This document shows, piece after piece, positions 1 to 5,247 of a stretch of DNA of 64,000 bases. The DNA is taken from the NCBI GenBank assembly GCA_965209205.1, contig CBDBQC010000003.1:532433-596432 (forward strand), read 5' to 3'. A program made the translations under genes and the position numbers. The DNA comes from Dehalococcoidia bacterium. GTDB taxonomy: Bacteria; Chloroflexota; Dehalococcoidia; Bin125. Below the pieces are notes generated by a model, which ran no database searches, was not told where the DNA came from, and saw nothing but the letters and a program-made list of their open reading frames with translations. The number at the start of each line of letters is the position of its first letter. The stretch's first letter is position 1.

Positions 1-250
1 TCGCCGCCAGGTCGTGCTCGGCGAGGCCGGTGTCGAGGCCGTTGATGCGCACGCAGAGCAGCCGGCCGCGGGCGTCGAAGCGGGGCAGCGCGGCGGCGAC
101 GGTGTCGCGGGCGGCGCCCTTGTCGTCCCAGGCGACGGAGTCTTCGAGGTCGAAGCAGATGATGTCGGCCGGCACCGCCAGCGCCTTGTCGATGAAGCGC
201 TGCTGGTTGCCGGGCACCGAGAGCATGCTGCGCAGGATGGGCGCGCTCAT
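1..250 (-). CDS. HpcH/HpaI aldolase / citrate lyase beta (CitE)-family protein, 5' part (runs off window start)
   Basis: Not in ORF track. Manual minus-strand translation from ATG at 250: MSAPILRSMLSVPGNQQRFIDKALAVPADIICFDLEDSV...LLCVRINGLDTG, with the CitE-family RSxLxVP, DLEDSV and VRIN motifs. Confidence 0.88.
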   Translation of the reverse strand, partial: MSAPILRSMLSVPGNQQRFIDKALAVPADIICFDLEDSVAWDDKGAARDTVAAALPRFDARGRLLCVRINGLDTGLAEHDLAA

Positions 251-414
251 GGGTCGGCAGCATAGCGGTCGCGCGGCGCGGGGGCCGTCAGCAGGCCGTC
301 GGGTGGACCCTCGTCGGAGCTAATGCAGTCAAACTTGAAGTTCTGGGGGGTTAACTTGAACTCGTCGGGCGGAAAGTAGAAGTTGAGATGGCCCTCGATA
401 GGTCCGGAGAGCCG

Positions 415-420
415 TAGGAT
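415..420 (+). promoter_or_regulatory. Putative -10 box (TAGGAT) for leaderless transcript of the endonuclease gene
   Basis: TAGGAT lies 6 nt before the GTG at 427 and there is no SD. The TAG at 415-417 is in frame, so the ORF cannot extend upstream. Confidence 0.5.
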
Positions 421-426
421 CACTGC

Positions 427-975
427 GTGGCTGGTTCAGGTCGTCGCAAAGTTCAGGATGACACGCGTGAGGTGACCCTCGCGCGCCTTCTGGAGTTGCA
501 GCCGAGCGAGCGTCGGATCGGGCCGGACGCGACCGATGAGAATGGGAACACATACGAACTGAAGACGACGACGACCAAGGGCCTCAGCACGGGACGAGAC
601 GTGGGGCAGCGCTTTCTCGATGGACTTCGCCAGTGCTACTTCATCGCGGCGAGGGGTCAGCAGACGACGTACGCGTTCGCGTTCGAAGAGATCTACTTCC
701 TTCACCCCGACGACCTTGAAGACTGGATTCAGGCGATCGAAGACCGGTTGCGTGATGACCTAACCGTCGTTGCGGAGGCCCTCGGAGCGCTCGAACGGGA
801 GGGCGCGGACAAGCTGAAGTTGGAGCGACTTCGCTCCATCGGCGAGCGTGGCGTCACGTTGAACAATCCGAAGATCCCATGGGCCTACGTGGAGAGCCAT
901 GGGGCACGCCTGGGCTCTACGCCGTCGGCAGACCTGCGAAGGCTAGTTGCCGAGCGTCCACTCGCTTCGTCCTAG
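427..975 (+). CDS. PvuII-family type II restriction endonuclease homologue (PD-(D/E)xK)
   Basis: PDATDENGNTYELKT..KGLST, IYFLHPDDLE and LNNPKIPWAYVESHG match R.PvuII as I recall it (NDAVDNAGQEYELKS..KGFST, IYRLEPKDLE, INNPKIPVKYVMEHG). Catalytic D34-x9-E44-x-K46 has PvuII spacing. Confidence 0.85.
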   Translation: MAGSGRRKVQDDTREVTLARLLELQPSERRIGPDATDENGNTYELKTTTTKGLSTGRDVGQRFLDGLRQCYFIAARGQQTTYAFAFEEIYFLHPDDLEDWIQAIEDRLRDDLTVVAEALGALEREGADKLKLERLRSIGERGVTLNNPKIPWAYVESHGARLGSTPSADLRRLVAERPLASS

Positions 976-1612
976 GGCGGATCGGCCGCCGATCCGCCCA
1001 GGCCTCGCATGCCGCTCTCTTCTGAGCTTCTGTCAGGGGGCGTGCGAACTCGAACAAGAAGGATGTCTTCGTGTGAAGATAGTCGGGGTTCAACTGGTCG
1101 TGACCGCCATTCCTTCGGTGCGCACTGCCATGGAGGGATCCGCCGCTCTTGCCGACCTCCGAGAAGTTGGCCGCGCGGTAGATCGTGCCTTCATGATGGA
1201 CGTCGTCTGCCCACGATACGCAGGCCGCGATGTCTGGGAGATGAGGGTACTTGCCGTGCCAATCCTGACGGATCCTGCGGAGCGATCTGCCGACGGCGCA
1301 GCTTGCGATCGAGAGCGTGTGTTCCATCCCCTGCGAGTCGGTGACTGTTTGCCCTTGCACTTCAGGGTCGATCCACAGGCGAGCCAACTCCACGAGGTTC
1401 ATCGGGCCATGGCCCTGAAATTTCACGCTGAGCCGGGGGAGGGCGAACAACAGAACCCCACAACGCTGGCCGTCCAGCAGAATCCAATAGGGCATCTGCG
1501 CCATCGTGCGACCGCGGTGGAGGTAGTGGTTCTCAACGATGACCTGAGTCGCCTCCTTCAGGTTCGCGACCTCAAGTGCGATTCGGCTGCGGAGCGTCGG
1601 GCTGGAAGTCAT
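917..1612 (-). CDS. Mom-family (phage Mu Mom-like, GNAT fold) DNA adenine modification protein, 231 aa
   Basis: Motifs IVENHYLH, GVLLFA, VELARLWI, SWAD..HEGTIYRAANF..VG typical of Mom-like proteins. Start at ATG 1612 overlaps the upstream stop (ATGA). Confidence 0.8.
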   Translation of the reverse strand: MTSSPTLRSRIALEVANLKEATQVIVENHYLHRGRTMAQMPYWILLDGQRCGVLLFALPRLSVKFQGHGPMNLVELARLWIDPEVQGQTVTDSQGMEHTLSIASCAVGRSLRRIRQDWHGKYPHLPDIAACVSWADDVHHEGTIYRAANFSEVGKSGGSLHGSAHRRNGGHDQLNPDYLHTKTSFLFEFARPLTEAQKRAACEAWADRRPIRPRTKRVDARQLAFAGLPTA

Positions 1613-1785
1613 GCTTGTTCCGCCCCGTATGGAGCCGCCTCCTCCGCGGCTCGGCGCTGTTTGCGGGGGGAATCCCAGTAGGCGCTCTTGCACCGCGGGC
1701 AGACTTTGGGCACTGCCTTGGTCCGCGGCACCCATTCGTGGCCGCACCGTTCGCACTGGTAGCCGAGGAAGCTCACCCTGCCCAT
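1609..1785 (-). CDS. Small zinc-ribbon protein (58 aa, CxxC-x14-CxxC), positionally analogous to Mu Com
   Basis: Below ORF-track cutoff. Manual translation: MGRVSFLGYQCERCGHEWVPRTKAVPKVCPRCKSAYWDSPRKQRRAAEEAAPYGAEQA*. Its TGA overlaps the ATG of the Mom-like gene. Confidence 0.85.
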   Translation of the reverse strand: MGRVSFLGYQCERCGHEWVPRTKAVPKVCPRCKSAYWDSPRKQRRAAEEAAPYGAEQA

Positions 1786-1789
1786 ACGA

Positions 1790-1810
1790 CTACTATATTA
1801 TCAGTAGTAG
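1790..1810 (-). promoter_or_regulatory. AT-rich leaderless promoter with overlapping inverted repeat CTACTA-N9-TAGTAG
   Basis: Minus strand reads cctactactgataaTATAGTagtcgtATG: -10-like TATAGT 6 nt before ATG 1785. IR arms at 1790-1795 and 1805-1810. Confidence 0.6.
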
Positions 1811-1845
1811 GCACCCGCAACGGTGTTATTGGAAAGAGCGTCCCC

Positions 1846-2532
1846 TCAGCCCGACGGGAAGGCGACGTTCAGCGCCGGCACCTCCGACGGGTGGCGCGTG
1901 AGGCGGCCGCGCAGGCCGTGGGCGCGCAGGGCGGCGTCGTCGGGCGGGTGGGACGGCAGGGGCAGGCCCTCGACGGCGGGCAGGCCCGATGCCTGGGCGG
2001 CGAAGACGACCGCCGCGCGGGCGGCGTCGAGCAGGCCGGGGGCGGGCACGTCGAGGACGAGCTCCATGGCGAGCGGGGCCGTCGCGACGCCGAGCCAGGT
2101 CAGGCGGCTGCTGGCCGCGGCCAGTTGCGACACGCGCCCCAGCGCGGCCGCGCTCTCGATCCAGAGGCCCAGGGCGGTGAGGCCGGGCTCGATGCCGGCG
2201 CGCCCCTCGACATCCTCCAGCAGGGAATCGACGAAGCGCAGCTGGTCGACGTGCACGACGCCGGGCAGCGAGACGCCGTAGACGCCGTCGCGCAGGGTGG
2301 CGAGCAGCTGCTCGCGCAGGTTGGGCGACTGCGGGCCGCGGCTGTGCAGGTAGACGCGGTGGCCGGCCTGCCGCAGCCCATCGATCGCCGCCACGGCGGC
2401 GTCGTGGCCGCCGGCGTCGGTGTGCATGAGATCGACGAGGGTGGCGTCGGGGAGTGCGGGGGCGTCCGCGCCGATCCCGGCGAGGCCGTCGCTGTCGGCG
2501 GGGACGAGCAGCAGTGAGCGGACGGTGTCCAT
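1846..2532 (-). CDS. HpcH/CitE-like aldolase/lyase paralogue, degenerate active site
   Basis: RSLLLVP, GVSLP, WIESAAAL, ARAAVVFAAQASGLPAVE. SD GGAG before ATG 2532. Confidence 0.75.
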   Translation of the reverse strand: MDTVRSLLLVPADSDGLAGIGADAPALPDATLVDLMHTDAGGHDAAVAAIDGLRQAGHRVYLHSRGPQSPNLREQLLATLRDGVYGVSLPGVVHVDQLRFVDSLLEDVEGRAGIEPGLTALGLWIESAAALGRVSQLAAASSRLTWLGVATAPLAMELVLDVPAPGLLDAARAAVVFAAQASGLPAVEGLPLPSHPPDDAALRAHGLRGRLTRHPSEVPALNVAFPSG

Positions 2533-2566
2533 CGCTCCTCCCTTCAAGACAGAGGTCGCGGCCGGG

Positions 2567-3871
<1,305 letters not shown>

Positions 3872-3957: not shown

Positions 3958-4920
3958 GTGCCGAGTGACGTCGCGCCGGTCCGCTACGAGTACAACTGGA
4001 ATCCCCTGGTGGGGTGCCTGCAGGGGCTGCTGCGCGCCGCCGGGCTGCCGCACGACGCCGCGCGGGTGAGCGCCGTGAGCGGCGAGGCGTTCCGCCTGCC
4101 GTCGTTGGCCGCCGAGCCCCGGCAGCCGGCCTTCGCGGCGGGCGCGGATCACCCCCGCGACCTCTCCGCCCTCGCCGACGACCTGGCCTTGCTGGGACTG
4201 CGCGCCCGCGTCGACGTGTGGGACCTGCGGTCGGGCCGTCGGCCGCTGCTGGGGCGACGGCTGGGGCGGCGCCTGCGTCGCGCCCTGGCCGAGGGACGCG
4301 CGGCGGCGCTCTCGGGCGCGGCGGGCGGCGACTTCGGCCTGCTGCTGGCCTACGATGGCGCGCGCCGCGCCTACCGCGTCGACGGTCCGCTGAGCGAGGA
4401 GATCGGCGGCTGGCTGCGCGCGGACCGCGTCCCGGACCCGGACGCTGCCTGGCTGGCGACCGTCATCCCCGAGGCGGCGACGGCCGAGGGGCCGGCGGGC
4501 GCGGCCGCGCTCGTGCGGCGCGCGGCCGCGCACCAGCGCGACGCCGGACGCGCGCAGCTCGTGCGCGACTGGGTGGCGCTCCTGCGCTCGCAGGTCGAGA
4601 TCGACGCGGCGGGGCACGCGCGGGCGGCGCAGACGCTGGCCGCGTCGGCGGGCGAGGCGGCGCGCTTCTACCGGCAGGCGGCGGCGGAGGGGGTCGCCGA
4701 GGCGGCGCCCCTCGCCGAGCCGGCGGCGGCCCTGGCGCTGGCCCTGTCGCGCTTCGCGACGCTGTTCCCCTTCCCCGGCGGCGGCGACGTCGTCGCCGGG
4801 GGGCGCGAGGCGGGGGCGCGGTCGCTGGAGTCGGCGTTGCGCGCCGAAGCGGCGCCGGCGGCCGCGCCGCCGCCGCCCGACCCGGACCCGCGCCGGGACG
4901 CAGGCGAGAATCCCGGCTAG
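3958..4920 (+). CDS. Hypothetical protein (weak resemblance to BtrH-N/C39-like folds)
   Basis: 320-aa ORF with host-like codon usage filling the gap; family call is tentative. Confidence 0.65.
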   Translation: MPSDVAPVRYEYNWNPLVGCLQGLLRAAGLPHDAARVSAVSGEAFRLPSLAAEPRQPAFAAGADHPRDLSALADDLALLGLRARVDVWDLRSGRRPLLGRRLGRRLRRALAEGRAAALSGAAGGDFGLLLAYDGARRAYRVDGPLSEEIGGWLRADRVPDPDAAWLATVIPEAATAEGPAGAAALVRRAAAHQRDAGRAQLVRDWVALLRSQVEIDAAGHARAAQTLAASAGEAARFYRQAAAEGVAEAAPLAEPAAALALALSRFATLFPFPGGGDVVAGGREAGARSLESALRAEAAPAAAPPPPDPDPRRDAGENPG

Positions 4921-4935
4921 GATCGCGGCGGGAGG

Positions 4936-5247
4936 ATGATCATCGTGCCGGTACACGTGCGCATGTTTACGACGCTGGTGGCGCTGTCGAAGACGAAGCA
5001 GCCCAAGTTCGACATCGACTGGCGCGCGGGGATGACCGTGGGGGACATCGTCGCGGCGGAGGGCTTCAGCGAGCAGGACGCGGAGGCCATCGCGGCCGTG
5101 GTCAACCGCGAGCAGTCTGAGTTCGACCGCCGGCTGCATGACGGCGACGAGGTGGAGTTGATCGTCAACCTGCAAGGTGGAGCGGCGGTGTATGCGATGG
5201 TGGAGAACGTGGCCGGCTGCGTTGACACGCCCCCGGCCCGCTCATAG
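4936..5247 (+). CDS. MoaD/ThiS-family ubiquitin-like sulfur carrier with C-terminal extension after GG
   Basis: VHVRMF...TVGDIV...AVVN...RLHDGDEVELIVNLQGG followed by 21 extra residues. SD GGAGG. Confidence 0.85.
   Translation: MIIVPVHVRMFTTLVALSKTKQPKFDIDWRAGMTVGDIVAAEGFSEQDAEAIAAVVNREQSEFDRRLHDGDEVELIVNLQGGAAVYAMVENVAGCVDTPPARS

What the first reader, a model, noticed from the sequence alone, without database searches (positions are those of the whole stretch)
427..1810. Candidate methyltransferase-free restriction system: PvuII-like endonuclease paired with a Mom-family adenine hypermodifier
Seen: a three-gene lower-GC cassette. A PvuII-family nuclease with intact D-x9-E-x-K (427-975, +) converges on a Mom-like GNAT (917-1612, -), with 59 bp of 3' overlap, preceded by a zinc-ribbon gene. 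No DNA methyltransferase is recognisable in the cassette or elsewhere in the window. Known: R.PvuII cuts CAGCTG and is normally guarded by an m4C methyltransferase. Phage Mu Mom converts adenine in S-A-S-N-Y to N6-(1-acetamido)adenine as an anti-restriction device, and CAGCT fits SASNY. Inference: a phage anti-restriction chemistry may serve as the host self mark of a type II-like system. CAGCTG sites occur in flanking host genes (e.g. 2239-2244), so an active nuclease of that specificity would need protection. Alternative: the nuclease targets differently modified DNA, or the pair acts as a toxin-antitoxin module. I cannot exclude that earlier gene-neighbourhood surveys noted such pairs.
Basis: partly seen in the sequence, partly recalled or inferred. 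Interest (0 to 1): 0.93.

Follow-up and report, generated by a model that had tools for sequence, protein, structure and literature searches.

The report
Restriction system guarded by Mom, not methylase
A small mobile gene pair joins a PvuII-type DNA-cutting enzyme to a relative of phage Mu's Mom adenine-modifying enzyme instead of the usual methyltransferase, and this pairing recurs across many bacterial phyla, so it is a good candidate for testing whether Mom-type DNA modification can act as a cell's self mark.

Summary
Window 427-975(+) encodes a PvuII-family nuclease with an intact D34-x9-E44-x-K46. Window 917-1612(-) encodes a Mom-family GNAT and converges on it with a 59-bp overlap. Both pass Pfam cut-offs, and both models best match the solved PvuII and Mu Mom structures.

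The pair is a roughly 1.45-kb lower-GC insertion that is missing from same-genus genomes. It recurs widely: 18 of 19 credible nuclease homologues in reference genomes from several phyla have the Mom gene in the same convergent position. The nineteenth has an N6/N4 methyltransferase there instead. Starting from Mom, 40 of 54 assessable metagenome loci carry the nuclease. No methyltransferase recurs nearby.

Distances between the two proteins co-vary (Mantel r 0.79). In three genomes the pair sits with a transposase inside IS1595-type terminal inverted repeats. The zinc-ribbon gene is lineage-specific and not part of the core.

Best reading (about 0.7): a mobile type II-like restriction-modification module in which Mom-type adenine modification replaces methylation. 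The chemistry, the target site and the protection are all inferred.

The general idea of Mom plus a restriction nuclease was already predicted by Iyer and Aravind. I therefore rate this a new variant of a known kind.

The parts
400..1845 (.). Inserted lower-GC cassette of about 1.45 kb, lying between two HpcH/HpaI-family genes
   Evidence: Same-genus genome G004 has the two flanks about 20 bp apart. In G002 they are about 130 bp apart. G006 carries a different 1.5-kb insert at the same spot. GC is 0.60-0.64 in the cassette and 0.74-0.77 in the right-hand flank.
427..975 (+). PvuII-family type II restriction endonuclease, 182 aa. Catalytic residues D34, E44, K46. Recognition-loop motif T55-G-R57-D58. 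C-terminal motif R141-G-x-T-x-N146-N147-P-K149-I.
   Evidence: Pfam PF09225, 29.4 bits. PADLOC REase_II. Family profile against R.PvuII chains, E 6e-14. AF2 model pLDDT 91.3; the top 12 Foldseek PDB hits are all PvuII. Symmetric homodimer model scores 0.58 against a best control of 0.01.
917..1612 (-). Mom-family GNAT, 231 aa, the predicted DNA adenine N6 modifying enzyme. It keeps H29, Y30, R78, S104, D136 and Y145, which correspond to Mu Mom H58, Y59, R111, S124, D149 and Y159.
   Evidence: Pfam PF25680, 52.7 bits. PHROG 1384, Mom-like. hhalign against Mu Mom, probability 94%, E 1.2e-7. AF2 model pLDDT 90.5; best PDB match is 8bv8, phage Mu Mom. Residue mapping.
1609..1785 (-). Small CxxC...CxxC zinc-ribbon gene, 58 aa, overlapping the Mom start by 4 nt. 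It is a lineage-specific accessory and a possible regulator.
   Evidence: Zn_ribbon_8 hit below the cut-off. 54 stand-alone homologues of 46-81 aa. Next to Mom only in the window and its same-genus relative L010. No significant similarity to Mu Com.
975..999 (.). Perfect 12-bp-arm palindrome directly after the nuclease stop codon, inside the non-conserved 3' tail of the Mom gene. Possibly a bidirectional terminator or roadblock between the convergent genes.
   Evidence: Inverted repeat I9. RNA fold -26.5 kcal/mol, z -3.9, 0 of 200 shuffles as stable. No U-tract follows, and the terminator scan found nothing.
1786..1812 (-). The only AT-rich stretch of the cassette, with short inverted repeats (CTACTA...TAGTAG), just upstream of the zinc-ribbon start. 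A candidate promoter or operator for the zinc-ribbon and Mom transcript.
   Evidence: Read directly from the sequence. The sigma-70 consensus scan found no site, so this is weak.

Best explanation
This is a compact, horizontally mobile, type II-like restriction-modification module. A homodimeric PvuII-family endonuclease cuts an unmodified palindromic site. That site is predicted to be CAGCTG or a close CA..TG variant.

The convergently transcribed Mom-family GNAT protects the host chromosome in place of a methyltransferase. By analogy with phage Mu Mom, it would transfer glycine from Gly-tRNA(Gly) onto N6 of an adenine in that site after replication, giving N6-carbamoylmethyl-adenine. This would remove the adenine contact that the nuclease needs.

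Incoming unmodified DNA is cut. Loss of the module would expose the chromosome, so the pair also acts as an addiction unit, which fits its carriage as cargo of IS1595-type transposons in some genomes.

**Shown here:** family membership, fold and catalytic residues of both proteins; the conserved convergent pairing across phyla; co-variation of the two proteins; the insertion polymorphism; transposon carriage in relatives; and a homologue with a methyltransferase in Mom's place.

**Inferred:** the modification chemistry, the target sequence, that the modification blocks cleavage, and any anti-phage effect.
For: **Protein identities**
- Nuclease: Pfam above cut-off. Profile against R.PvuII gives E 6e-14 and covers both the D..ExK core and the C-terminal NNPKIP..HGT motif. 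The top 12 structural hits are all PvuII.
- Nuclease homodimer model: score 0.58, best of 3 controls 0.01. That mark was reached by 20 of 30 proteins solved as pairs and 1 of 23 solved as single chains. The runs share at least 81% of contacts and partner pLDDT is at least 86. The interface lies in the family-specific helical hairpin 110-144 plus D58. PvuII dimers are solved, so part of this pass may reflect likeness.
- Mom: Pfam above cut-off. The best PDB fold match is Mu Mom 8bv8. Six of nine functionally important Mu residues are conserved. Those residues are named in passages of PMC13219725.

**Pairing**
- 18 of 20 genome loci have Mom convergent and adjacent. They come from Chloroflexota, Acidobacteriota, Gammaproteobacteria, Armatimonadia and Pelagibacteraceae records.
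- 40 of 65 Mom-seeded metagenome loci have the nuclease, and all 40 are convergent. Eleven more are too short to judge.

**Substitution**
- The L026 nuclease keeps every invariant residue but faces a 481-aa N6_N4 methyltransferase with FSGTG and TSPPY motifs.

**No hidden methyltransferase**
- No methyltransferase family is matched by 2 or more of 125 flanking ORFs in 17 loci.
- There is no homologue of the L026 methyltransferase anywhere in this genome.

**Co-inheritance**
- Mantel r 0.79; 0 of 2000 permutations were as high. The nuclease diverges faster (mean distance 0.54 against 0.35), as restriction enzymes do relative to their modification partners.

**Mobility**
- Empty sites in same-genus genomes.
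- Nuclease found in 4 of 41 related genomes, own genome included.
- In L017, L014 and L013, terminal inverted repeats of 26, 21 and 20 bp enclose nuclease, Mom and an IS1595 transposase. Flanking direct repeats are present in two of the three.

**Need for protection**
- There are 736 CAGCTG sites in the genome.

**Literature**
- Mu-Mom-modified DNA resists PvuII (passages of PMC7261163).
- Mom acts on S-A-S sites using Gly-tRNA(Gly) (passages of PMC13219725).
Against: - Nothing here shows that the Mom-like enzyme modifies DNA, which base or site it modifies, or that modification blocks this nuclease.
- Mu R151 is essential in Mu Mom but has no counterpart here: it aligns to a gap next to V138-H139. 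W48 and W181 are also not conserved.
- The Mu HTH-like insertion corresponds to a shorter, different, glycine-rich loop that is modelled with less confidence (pLDDT 71-83).
- The PvuII His83-His84-His85 recognition triplet is replaced by G/A-R-D, so the target site may not be CAGCTG.
- The genome has 18 methyltransferase-family matches elsewhere. A distant methyltransferase guarding this nuclease cannot be excluded for this one genome.
- Mu Mom is described as toxic when expressed (passage of PMC12707154). A constitutive host copy would need narrower specificity or tight control, and neither is shown.
- 14 of 54 assessable Mom-clade loci lack the PvuII-type nuclease.
- Many loci are kin and so are not independent. 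L010 has the same insertion as the window, and L020 and L022 look alike.
Confidence: 0.7

Rival explanations
1. The biochemistry is the same, but the function is selfish rather than defensive. The pair is mainly an addiction or stabilisation cargo of transposons: post-segregational killing keeps the element in the genome, and any phage restriction is a by-product.
For: The pair lies inside IS1595 terminal inverted repeats with the transposase in 3 of 18 genome loci, and next to such a transposase in 1 of 65 metagenome loci. Its distribution among relatives is patchy. One close Mom-clade protein is fused to a GIY-YIG plus NUMOD nuclease, an architecture typical of homing endonucleases.
Against: Most loci (15 of 18) show no transposase beside the pair. 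The window copy has neither a transposase nor terminal repeats. In a sister genome the same intergenic spot holds a STAND NTPase, and some loci sit beside type I R-M or Druantia genes, which is defence-island company. The two roles do not exclude each other.
Confidence: 0.1
2. The Mom-like GNAT does not guard the nuclease's site. It acylates another substrate, such as a tRNA, a protein or a different DNA context, or it serves as general anti-restriction for the mobile element. The chromosome is protected by one of the genome's many methyltransferases, or the nuclease has little activity.
For: There are 18 methyltransferase-family matches elsewhere in the genome. GNATs that act on aminoacyl-tRNA exist, such as TacT, mentioned in passages of PMC13219725. 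Mu R151 is not conserved.
Against: This would require a suitable unlinked methyltransferase in every one of many unrelated hosts, yet the only conserved neighbour is Mom. The two proteins co-vary. In L026 a methyltransferase occupies exactly Mom's position. The best fold match is Mu Mom rather than tRNA-acting GNATs.
Confidence: 0.1
3. The nuclease is modification-dependent (type IV-like) and cuts DNA that carries some foreign modification. Mom serves another purpose.
For: Weak structural hits to methyl-dependent enzymes (NhoI, Eco15I N-terminal domain, DpnI) at E 2e-3 to 2e-2.
Against: PvuII matches are about six orders of magnitude better, and PvuII's NNPK recognition motif is retained. A homologue is paired with a methyltransferase in the classical protective arrangement. 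A type IV enzyme needs no adjacent modifier, yet one is nearly always present.
Confidence: 0.03
4. The window copy is a decaying remnant and no longer functions.
For: It has no transposase or terminal repeats, and only fragments of IS1595-type transposases remain elsewhere in the genome.
Against: Both frames are full length with every family-invariant residue. The same-genus relative keeps both at 94-96% protein identity.
Confidence: 0.05

Closest known systems
PvuII restriction-modification system (R.PvuII, M.PvuII, C.PvuII)
   Same: The nuclease belongs to the same family and fold. It has the identical D-x9-E-x-K spacing and the NNPKIP..HGT C-terminal motif, and a homodimer is predicted.
   Different: No methyltransferase and no C protein are present; the partner is a GNAT. 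The His83-85 recognition triplet is replaced by G/A-R-D. A 50-residue helical hairpin (94-142) forms the predicted dimer interface. The genes are convergent and overlapping. That M.PvuII makes m4C and that PvuII cuts CAGCTG come from memory and from the finding, not from a call.
Phage Mu Mom with its regulator Com
   Same: Same Pfam family and the best structural match. The residues H58, Y59, R111, S124, D149 and Y159 are conserved. A small zinc-binding gene overlaps the start of the modifier gene in both Mu and the window.
   Different: Mu Mom is a phage anti-restriction enzyme with no nuclease partner, silent in lysogens (passage of PMC12707154). Here the gene is chromosomal and tied to a nuclease. 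Identity is only about 25% over 157 aligned columns. R151, W48 and W181 are not conserved. The insertion is shorter. The zinc ribbon is not homologous to Com and is absent from most loci.
Predicted 'momylation systems': Mom domains fused or linked to REase-fold nucleases (Iyer, Aravind and co-workers)
   Same: Same logic: Mom protects, and the linked nuclease restricts. This is stated for jumbo-phage Mom-REase fusions and, by citation, for phage and bacterial genomes (passages of PMC7824862).
   Different: Those cases are described as fusions in jumbo phages. Here there are two separate convergent genes in bacterial chromosomes. The nuclease is specifically of the PvuII family. There is a methyltransferase-bearing sister system and IS1595 carriage. 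I could not read Iyer 2009 or Iyer 2013 or any supplements, so I cannot say whether this exact pair is listed there.
Restriction systems with non-methyl self marks: phosphorothioate (Dnd, Ssp) and 7-deazaguanine (Dpd)
   Same: A host-encoded DNA modification other than methylation serves as the self mark. These are the only non-methyl host marks listed in the passages I read of the 2025 review PMC12707154.
   Different: Those are multi-gene pathways with dedicated restriction complexes. This is a two-gene unit built on a classical type II nuclease and a single-enzyme base modification.

Membership tests
PvuII endonuclease family (PF09225) | Profile match above the curated cut-off | tested here: met
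   29.4 bits against a cut-off of 25. Family profile against R.PvuII chains gives E 6e-14.
PvuII endonuclease family (PF09225) | Catalytic D-x9-E-x-K (PvuII D58, E68, K70) | tested here: met
   D34, E44 and K46 are invariant in 29 sequences and align to the PvuII triad.
PvuII endonuclease family (PF09225) | PvuII fold | tested here: met
   AF2 model pLDDT 91.3. The top 12 Foldseek hits are all PvuII, E 7e-10 to 9e-9, target-normalised TM 0.63-0.68 for the ten full-length PvuII chains (0.32-0.34 for the two 311-313-residue single-chain PvuII chains, 3ksk).
PvuII endonuclease family (PF09225) | PvuII DNA-recognition residues: S81-T82-H83-H84-H85 and N140-N141-x-K143 | tested here: inconclusive
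   The NNPK motif is identical. The His triplet is replaced by G/A-R-D. Which bases these residues contact in PvuII is recalled from memory, not taken from a call.
PvuII endonuclease family (PF09225) | Cleavage at CAGCTG | not testable with these tools
   Needs an enzyme assay.
Mom family (PF25680) | Profile match above the curated cut-off | tested here: met
   52.7 bits against a cut-off of 27.1. PHROG 1384, E 2.7e-13. hhalign against Mu Mom, probability 94%.
Mom family (PF25680) | GNAT fold closest to Mu Mom | tested here: met
   Model pLDDT 90.5. Ranks 1-2 are 8bv8 chains (E 3.7e-8 and 4.3e-7), ahead of generic GNATs.
Mom family (PF25680) | Residues needed for Mu Mom activity: H58, Y59, R111, S124, D149, R151, Y159 | tested here: inconclusive
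   Six of the seven are conserved, as H29, Y30, R78, S104, D136 and Y145. R151 has no counterpart. The residue list comes from passages of PMC13219725.
Mom family (PF25680) | HTH-like insertion essential for activity (Mu residues about 175-209) | tested here: inconclusive
   An insertion lies at the same place (156-185) and is very conserved within the clade, but it is shorter and not helical in the model.
Mom family (PF25680) | Makes N6-carbamoylmethyl-dA from Gly-tRNA(Gly) | not testable with these tools
   Needs LC-MS or in vitro reconstitution.
Classical type II restriction-modification system | Adjacent nuclease gene and modification gene inherited together | tested here: met
   18 of 19 credible genome loci and 40 of 54 assessable metagenome loci. 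Mantel r 0.79.
Classical type II restriction-modification system | The modification enzyme is a SAM-dependent DNA methyltransferase | tested here: not met
   The partner is a GNAT. There is no methyltransferase in the cassette or window by four families. None recurs in the flanks of relatives.
Classical type II restriction-modification system | The modification blocks the cognate nuclease at the same site | not testable with these tools
   Needs an experiment.
IS1595-family transposon with passenger genes | DDE_Tnp_IS1595 transposase and terminal inverted repeats enclosing the cargo | tested here: not met
   Not met for the window: there is no transposase, no terminal repeats, and no clear link between the zinc ribbon and the transposase. 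It is met in relatives L017, L014 and L013.

The most novel reading that the evidence does not exclude
A tRNA-dependent aminoacyl-transfer hypermodification of adenine, so far known only as a phage counter-defence, is the heritable self mark of a widespread minimal type II restriction system. That system arose when a Mom-type GNAT displaced the methyltransferase of a PvuII-like system. It spreads between phyla as a two-gene cargo of IS1595 transposons, and current defence-system finders miss it because they see only an orphan restriction nuclease.
Probability: 0.5. Interest if true: 0.8.

Novelty: new variant of a known kind. Interest (0 to 1): 0.65.

Why it matters
**A new kind of host mark.** If confirmed, this would add a third chemically distinct non-methyl host mark to restriction-modification biology, after phosphorothioate and 7-deazaguanine. 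It would be the first made by a single small enzyme on a classical type II scaffold.

**The arms race run backwards.** A phage counter-defence chemistry would turn out to be used by cells as the defence's own self label.

**Orphan nucleases explained.** It would account for an apparently lethal class of 'orphan' PvuII-like nucleases in genome annotations. PADLOC models hit only the nuclease.

**Practical uses.** The module would offer a compact pair, together under 1.3 kb, for site-specific bulky adenine modification. Its presence would also warn that long-read basecalling and methylation callers may misread such genomes.

**Evolutionary comparison.** The methyltransferase-bearing sister system (L026) gives a natural comparison for how a modification module is swapped.

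Tried and rejected
**Zinc ribbon as a third core component: rejected.** It is found beside Mom only in the window and in L010.

**Zinc ribbon as a relic of the IS1595 transposase N-terminus: not supported.** The only similarity is a weak CxxC-driven match, E 6e-5 in a three-sequence search run without composition correction. The protein has 54 stand-alone homologues of 46-81 aa.

**Zinc ribbon as a Com homologue: not supported.** Only a shared CPRCK pentamer was found.

**Terminal inverted repeats or target duplications at the window cassette ends:** none were convincing.

**Promoter and terminator consensus scans:** 0 sites.

**Rfam scan of window 1-2600:** 0 matches at E up to 1.

**Site avoidance as a clue to specificity: uninformative.** CAGCTG observed/expected is 0.65, similar to many other palindromes. 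The window holds 23 sites against 24.4 expected.

**Cultured-phage collection.** The nuclease has no match. Mom has only weak matches of 25-33% identity. One IMG/VR contig (L103) carries a distant solitary PvuII-family nuclease.

**Longer, fused forms of the nuclease:** none found. The tool itself calls this weak evidence.

**PDB sequence searches.**
- phmmer with the Mom-like protein found nothing. The fold search then found 8bv8.
- phmmer with the L026 methyltransferase found nothing, so I could not test its relation to M.PvuII.

**Sequencing runs.** 24 runs were listed and all are kept as contigs. No RNA holder is listed, and there are no raw reads. Modification-linked miscalls and expression therefore could not be examined, and I did not use read laying.

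**L029 dropped as a family member.** It matches at 31% over 68 residues, and Pfam finds no PvuII family in its ORF.

**Rows dropped before counts.**
- For the Mantel test: L010 (near-identical to the window), L022 (truncated Mom match), L026 and L029.
- For the flank scan: L010 was left out, and ORFs over 900 aa or under 200 aa were excluded to fit the size limit. That scan includes spurious frames.

**Papers not held.** Iyer 2009 (Cell Cycle) and Iyer 2013 (NAR) could not be read. Supplements are closed. Those of PMC7824862 (S1.11, S5) and PMC13219725 may list Mom-nuclease architectures or homologue contexts that bear on novelty.

Full report
**What is in the window**

Three ORFs lie in a lower-GC stretch. 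GC is 0.60-0.64 there, against 0.74-0.77 to the right.
- 427-975(+), 182 aa.
- 917-1612(-), 231 aa from the ATG where conservation begins.
- 1609-1785(-), 58 aa.

The first two converge and overlap by 59 bp. The third overlaps the start of the second by 4 nt. On either side lie two HpcH/HpaI-family genes.

**The nuclease**

It passes the Pfam PvuII model at 29.4 bits against a cut-off of 25. It also hits two PADLOC type II restriction-enzyme models.

Sixty homologues of 113-209 aa were found, and all but one carry the same Pfam family. In an alignment of 29 of them, D34, E44 and K46 are invariant. So are T55, R57 and the block R141-G-x-T-x-N-N-P-K-I.

A profile of that alignment finds R.PvuII chains at E 6e-14. 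The match covers the catalytic core and PvuII's C-terminal INNPKIPVKYVMEHGT segment. The PvuII segment S-T-H-H-H aligns to S/T-T-G/A-R-D.

The AlphaFold model is confident (pLDDT 91.3). Its twelve best PDB matches are all PvuII, and the next hits are about a million-fold weaker.

The family carries a long helical hairpin (residues 94-142) that PvuII lacks. A two-copy model places that hairpin, plus D58, at a symmetric interface. The score is 0.58 against a best of 3 controls of 0.01. That mark was reached by 20 of 30 proteins solved as pairs and 1 of 23 solved as single chains. The runs share at least 81% of contacts, and partner pLDDT is at least 86. PvuII dimers are solved, so some of this may be likeness, although the interface lies in the part PvuII lacks. 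A symmetric dimer fits a palindromic target.

**The Mom-like protein**

It passes the Pfam Mom model at 52.7 bits against a cut-off of 27.1, and it hits the PHROG 'Mom-like DNA modification protein'.

A profile of 18 clade members aligns to phage Mu Mom with 94% probability. The model (pLDDT 90.5) finds the Mu Mom crystal structure 8bv8 as its best PDB match, ahead of ordinary GNATs.

I aligned 55 diverse homologues plus Mu Mom. The Mu residues reported as needed for activity are named in passages of PMC13219725. They map as follows:
- H58 to H29, Y59 to Y30, R111 to R78, S124 to S104, D149 to D136, Y159 to Y145. All are conserved, mostly in 53 or more of 55 sequences.
- R151, essential in Mu, falls in a gap.
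- W48 and W181 are not kept.

Mu's HTH-like insertion is matched by a shorter glycine-rich segment (156-185). This segment is almost invariant within the clade but modelled with lower confidence.

**Is the pairing more than chance?**

A scan of one genome per species with the nuclease profile gave 20 loci. In 18 of them a close relative of the Mom-like protein (55-96% identity) lies immediately downstream on the opposite strand.

By their record titles, the 18 come from Dehalococcoidia and other Chloroflexota, Terriglobia, Blastocatellia, Pyrinomonadaceae, a gammaproteobacterium, Armatimonadia and a Pelagibacteraceae single-cell genome. GC ranges from 0.30 to 0.71.

Of the two exceptions:
- L029 is a marginal match with no PvuII family by Pfam.
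- L026 has, in exactly Mom's convergent position, a 481-aa protein with an N6_N4 DNA methyltransferase match and FSGTG and TSPPY motifs. Its nuclease keeps every invariant residue of the Mom-linked ones.

Starting instead from Mom, a metagenome scan gave 65 loci.
- 40 carry the nuclease, always convergent.
- 11 end too soon to tell.
- 14 have room but lack it.

Among those 14 and among more distant clade members, other nucleases appear:
- a PD-(D/E)XK gene directly upstream in L091, with relatives in L092 and L094;
- a GIY-YIG plus NUMOD domain fused to Mom in P0073.

**No recurrent methyltransferase**

I scanned 125 flanking ORFs from 17 loci: 200-900 aa, within 3 kb, all frames. No DNA methyltransferase family is matched by two or more of them. 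The only recurrent mobile-element family is the IS1595 transposase, with 3 members. One locus has a type I HsdM 2.9 kb away.

**Co-variation**

Pairwise distances of the two proteins co-vary across 17 pairs: Mantel r 0.79, with 0 of 2000 permutations as high. The nuclease is the faster-evolving partner, with mean distance 0.54 against 0.35.

Kin among these loci are not independent. L010 is the same insertion in a same-genus genome, 93% identical over 7 kb.

**Mobility**

Among 41 related genomes the nuclease was found in 4, own genome included, and in 1 of 6 other genomes of the genus.

In the genus, the same site looks like this:
- G004 has the two flanks about 20 bp apart.
- G002 has them about 130 bp apart.
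- G006 has a different 1.5-kb insert there, encoding a STAND NTPase. It is bracketed by two copies of a 113-bp segment that is single in the window.

The site is therefore a hot spot for accessory, defence-like genes.

In L017, L014 and L013 an IS1595-family transposase (zinc ribbon plus DDE domain) overlaps the Mom start by 4 nt. Terminal inverted repeats of 26 bp (perfect), 21 bp and 20 bp enclose nuclease, Mom and transposase in units of 2398, 2448 and 2355 bp. Short flanking direct repeats are present in two of the three. A fourth such transposase sits beside the pair in metagenome locus L038.

The window copy has no transposase and no terminal repeats. Only fragments of such transposases occur elsewhere in the genome.

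**The zinc ribbon**

It belongs to a family of stand-alone small zinc-ribbon proteins, with 54 homologues. It is next to Mom only in the window and in L010.

In phage Mu a small zinc-binding regulator gene, com, also overlaps the start of mom. The two proteins share no significant similarity. A regulatory role is possible but only by analogy.

**How it most likely works**

The simplest reading is a type II-like restriction-modification unit in which the Mom-type enzyme supplies the protective mark.

From the literature, as read in passages:
- Mu Mom transfers glycine from Gly-tRNA(Gly) to N6 of adenine in double-stranded DNA at S-A-S sites. The product rearranges to N6-carbamoylmethyl-dA (PMC13219725).
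- DNA modified by Mu Mom resists PvuII (PMC7261163).

From memory, not from a call: in PvuII, Asn140 and Asn141 read the outer C-A and the histidines read the central G-C, and a TSPPY motif is typical of N4-cytosine methyltransferases. If so:
- the retained NNPK motif predicts that the adenine is still read, which a bulky N6 group would block;
- Arg and Asp in place of two histidines could still read G and C;
- the L026 methyltransferase would mark the cytosine of the same site.

This is consistent with a CAGCTG-like target but does not show it.

The genome holds 736 CAGCTG sites, so an active enzyme of that specificity would need a guard.

Convergent, overlapping transcription and the strong hairpin after the nuclease stop codon could delay nuclease expression relative to Mom. 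That is inference.

**Evidence against and open points**
- No evidence of modification, specificity or protection exists here.
- R151 is missing.
- The insertion differs from Mu's.
- The genome has 12 N6_N4, 2 C5 and 4 N6_Mtase matches elsewhere, though none resembles the L026 methyltransferase.
- Mu Mom is described as toxic when expressed (PMC12707154 passage).

**Comparison with what is known**

Host-encoded non-methyl marks in the 2025 review passages I read are phosphorothioate and a 7-deazaguanine. Mom appears there only as a phage enzyme.

Iyer and co-workers wrote that momylation systems occur in phage and bacterial genomes, and that jumbo-phage Mom domains fused to REase-fold nucleases form a restriction component (passages of PMC7824862). 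The two cited source papers were not held, and supplements are closed.

My six literature searches found no description or test of a PvuII-family and Mom gene pair. Those papers and REBASE may contain one.

I therefore rate the finding as a new variant of a known, predicted kind, and not categorically new.

Noticed in passing
L037:1001-2534 (genome G006), corresponding to the window site at about 400/1846: A sister genome carries a different 1.5-kb insert at exactly the same intergenic spot. It encodes a 424-aa STAND NTPase (nSTAND1, AAA_16). The insert is bracketed by two copies of a 113-bp segment that is single in the window (267-379). The site looks like a hot spot for defence-type cargo.
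   Followed up: partly
window 247-423 (-), and 267-399: A conserved intergenic segment upstream of the HpcH-family gene at 2-250 can be read as a 58-aa ORF ending right at that gene's start codon. The peptide ...YFPPD.FKLTPQNFKF... is kept in sister genomes. There is no Rfam match. Whether it is a leader peptide, a small gene or a recombination site is unknown.
   Followed up: partly
whole genome G000: This 2.7-Mb genome has many DNA methyltransferase matches: 12 N6_N4, 2 C5 and 4 N6_Mtase. AAGCTT is strongly under-represented (25 observed against 152 expected), and CTCGAG is at half its expectation. This suggests other active restriction systems.
   Followed up: no
L091:958-2118, L092:38-601 and L094:67-678; protein P0073: Members of the same Mom clade that lack the PvuII-type partner sit next to a PD-(D/E)XK nuclease gene, or are fused to a GIY-YIG plus NUMOD nuclease. 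L091, L092 and L099 also share an unannotated gene of about 400 aa downstream of Mom.
   Followed up: partly
L082:1143-2537: One Mom-clade gene faces a Druantia DruA homologue. Locus L023 has a type I HsdM 2.9 kb from the pair. Both are defence-island contexts.
   Followed up: no
L103:5980-6588 (IMG/VR contig): A viral contig carries a distant (32% identity) PvuII-family nuclease with no adjacent Mom or methyltransferase. It sits beside RtcB and NADAR genes.
   Followed up: partly
L024:1692-2660 and L025:6535-7965: A subclade of the Mom-like proteins shares an extra conserved N-terminal stretch (FWGNAKPP...W I..FGRY) ahead of the GNAT core. Its function is unknown.
   Followed up: no
window 4051-4950: A stretch with a very high GC fraction (0.81-0.83), well above the genome mean of 0.72.
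   Followed up: no
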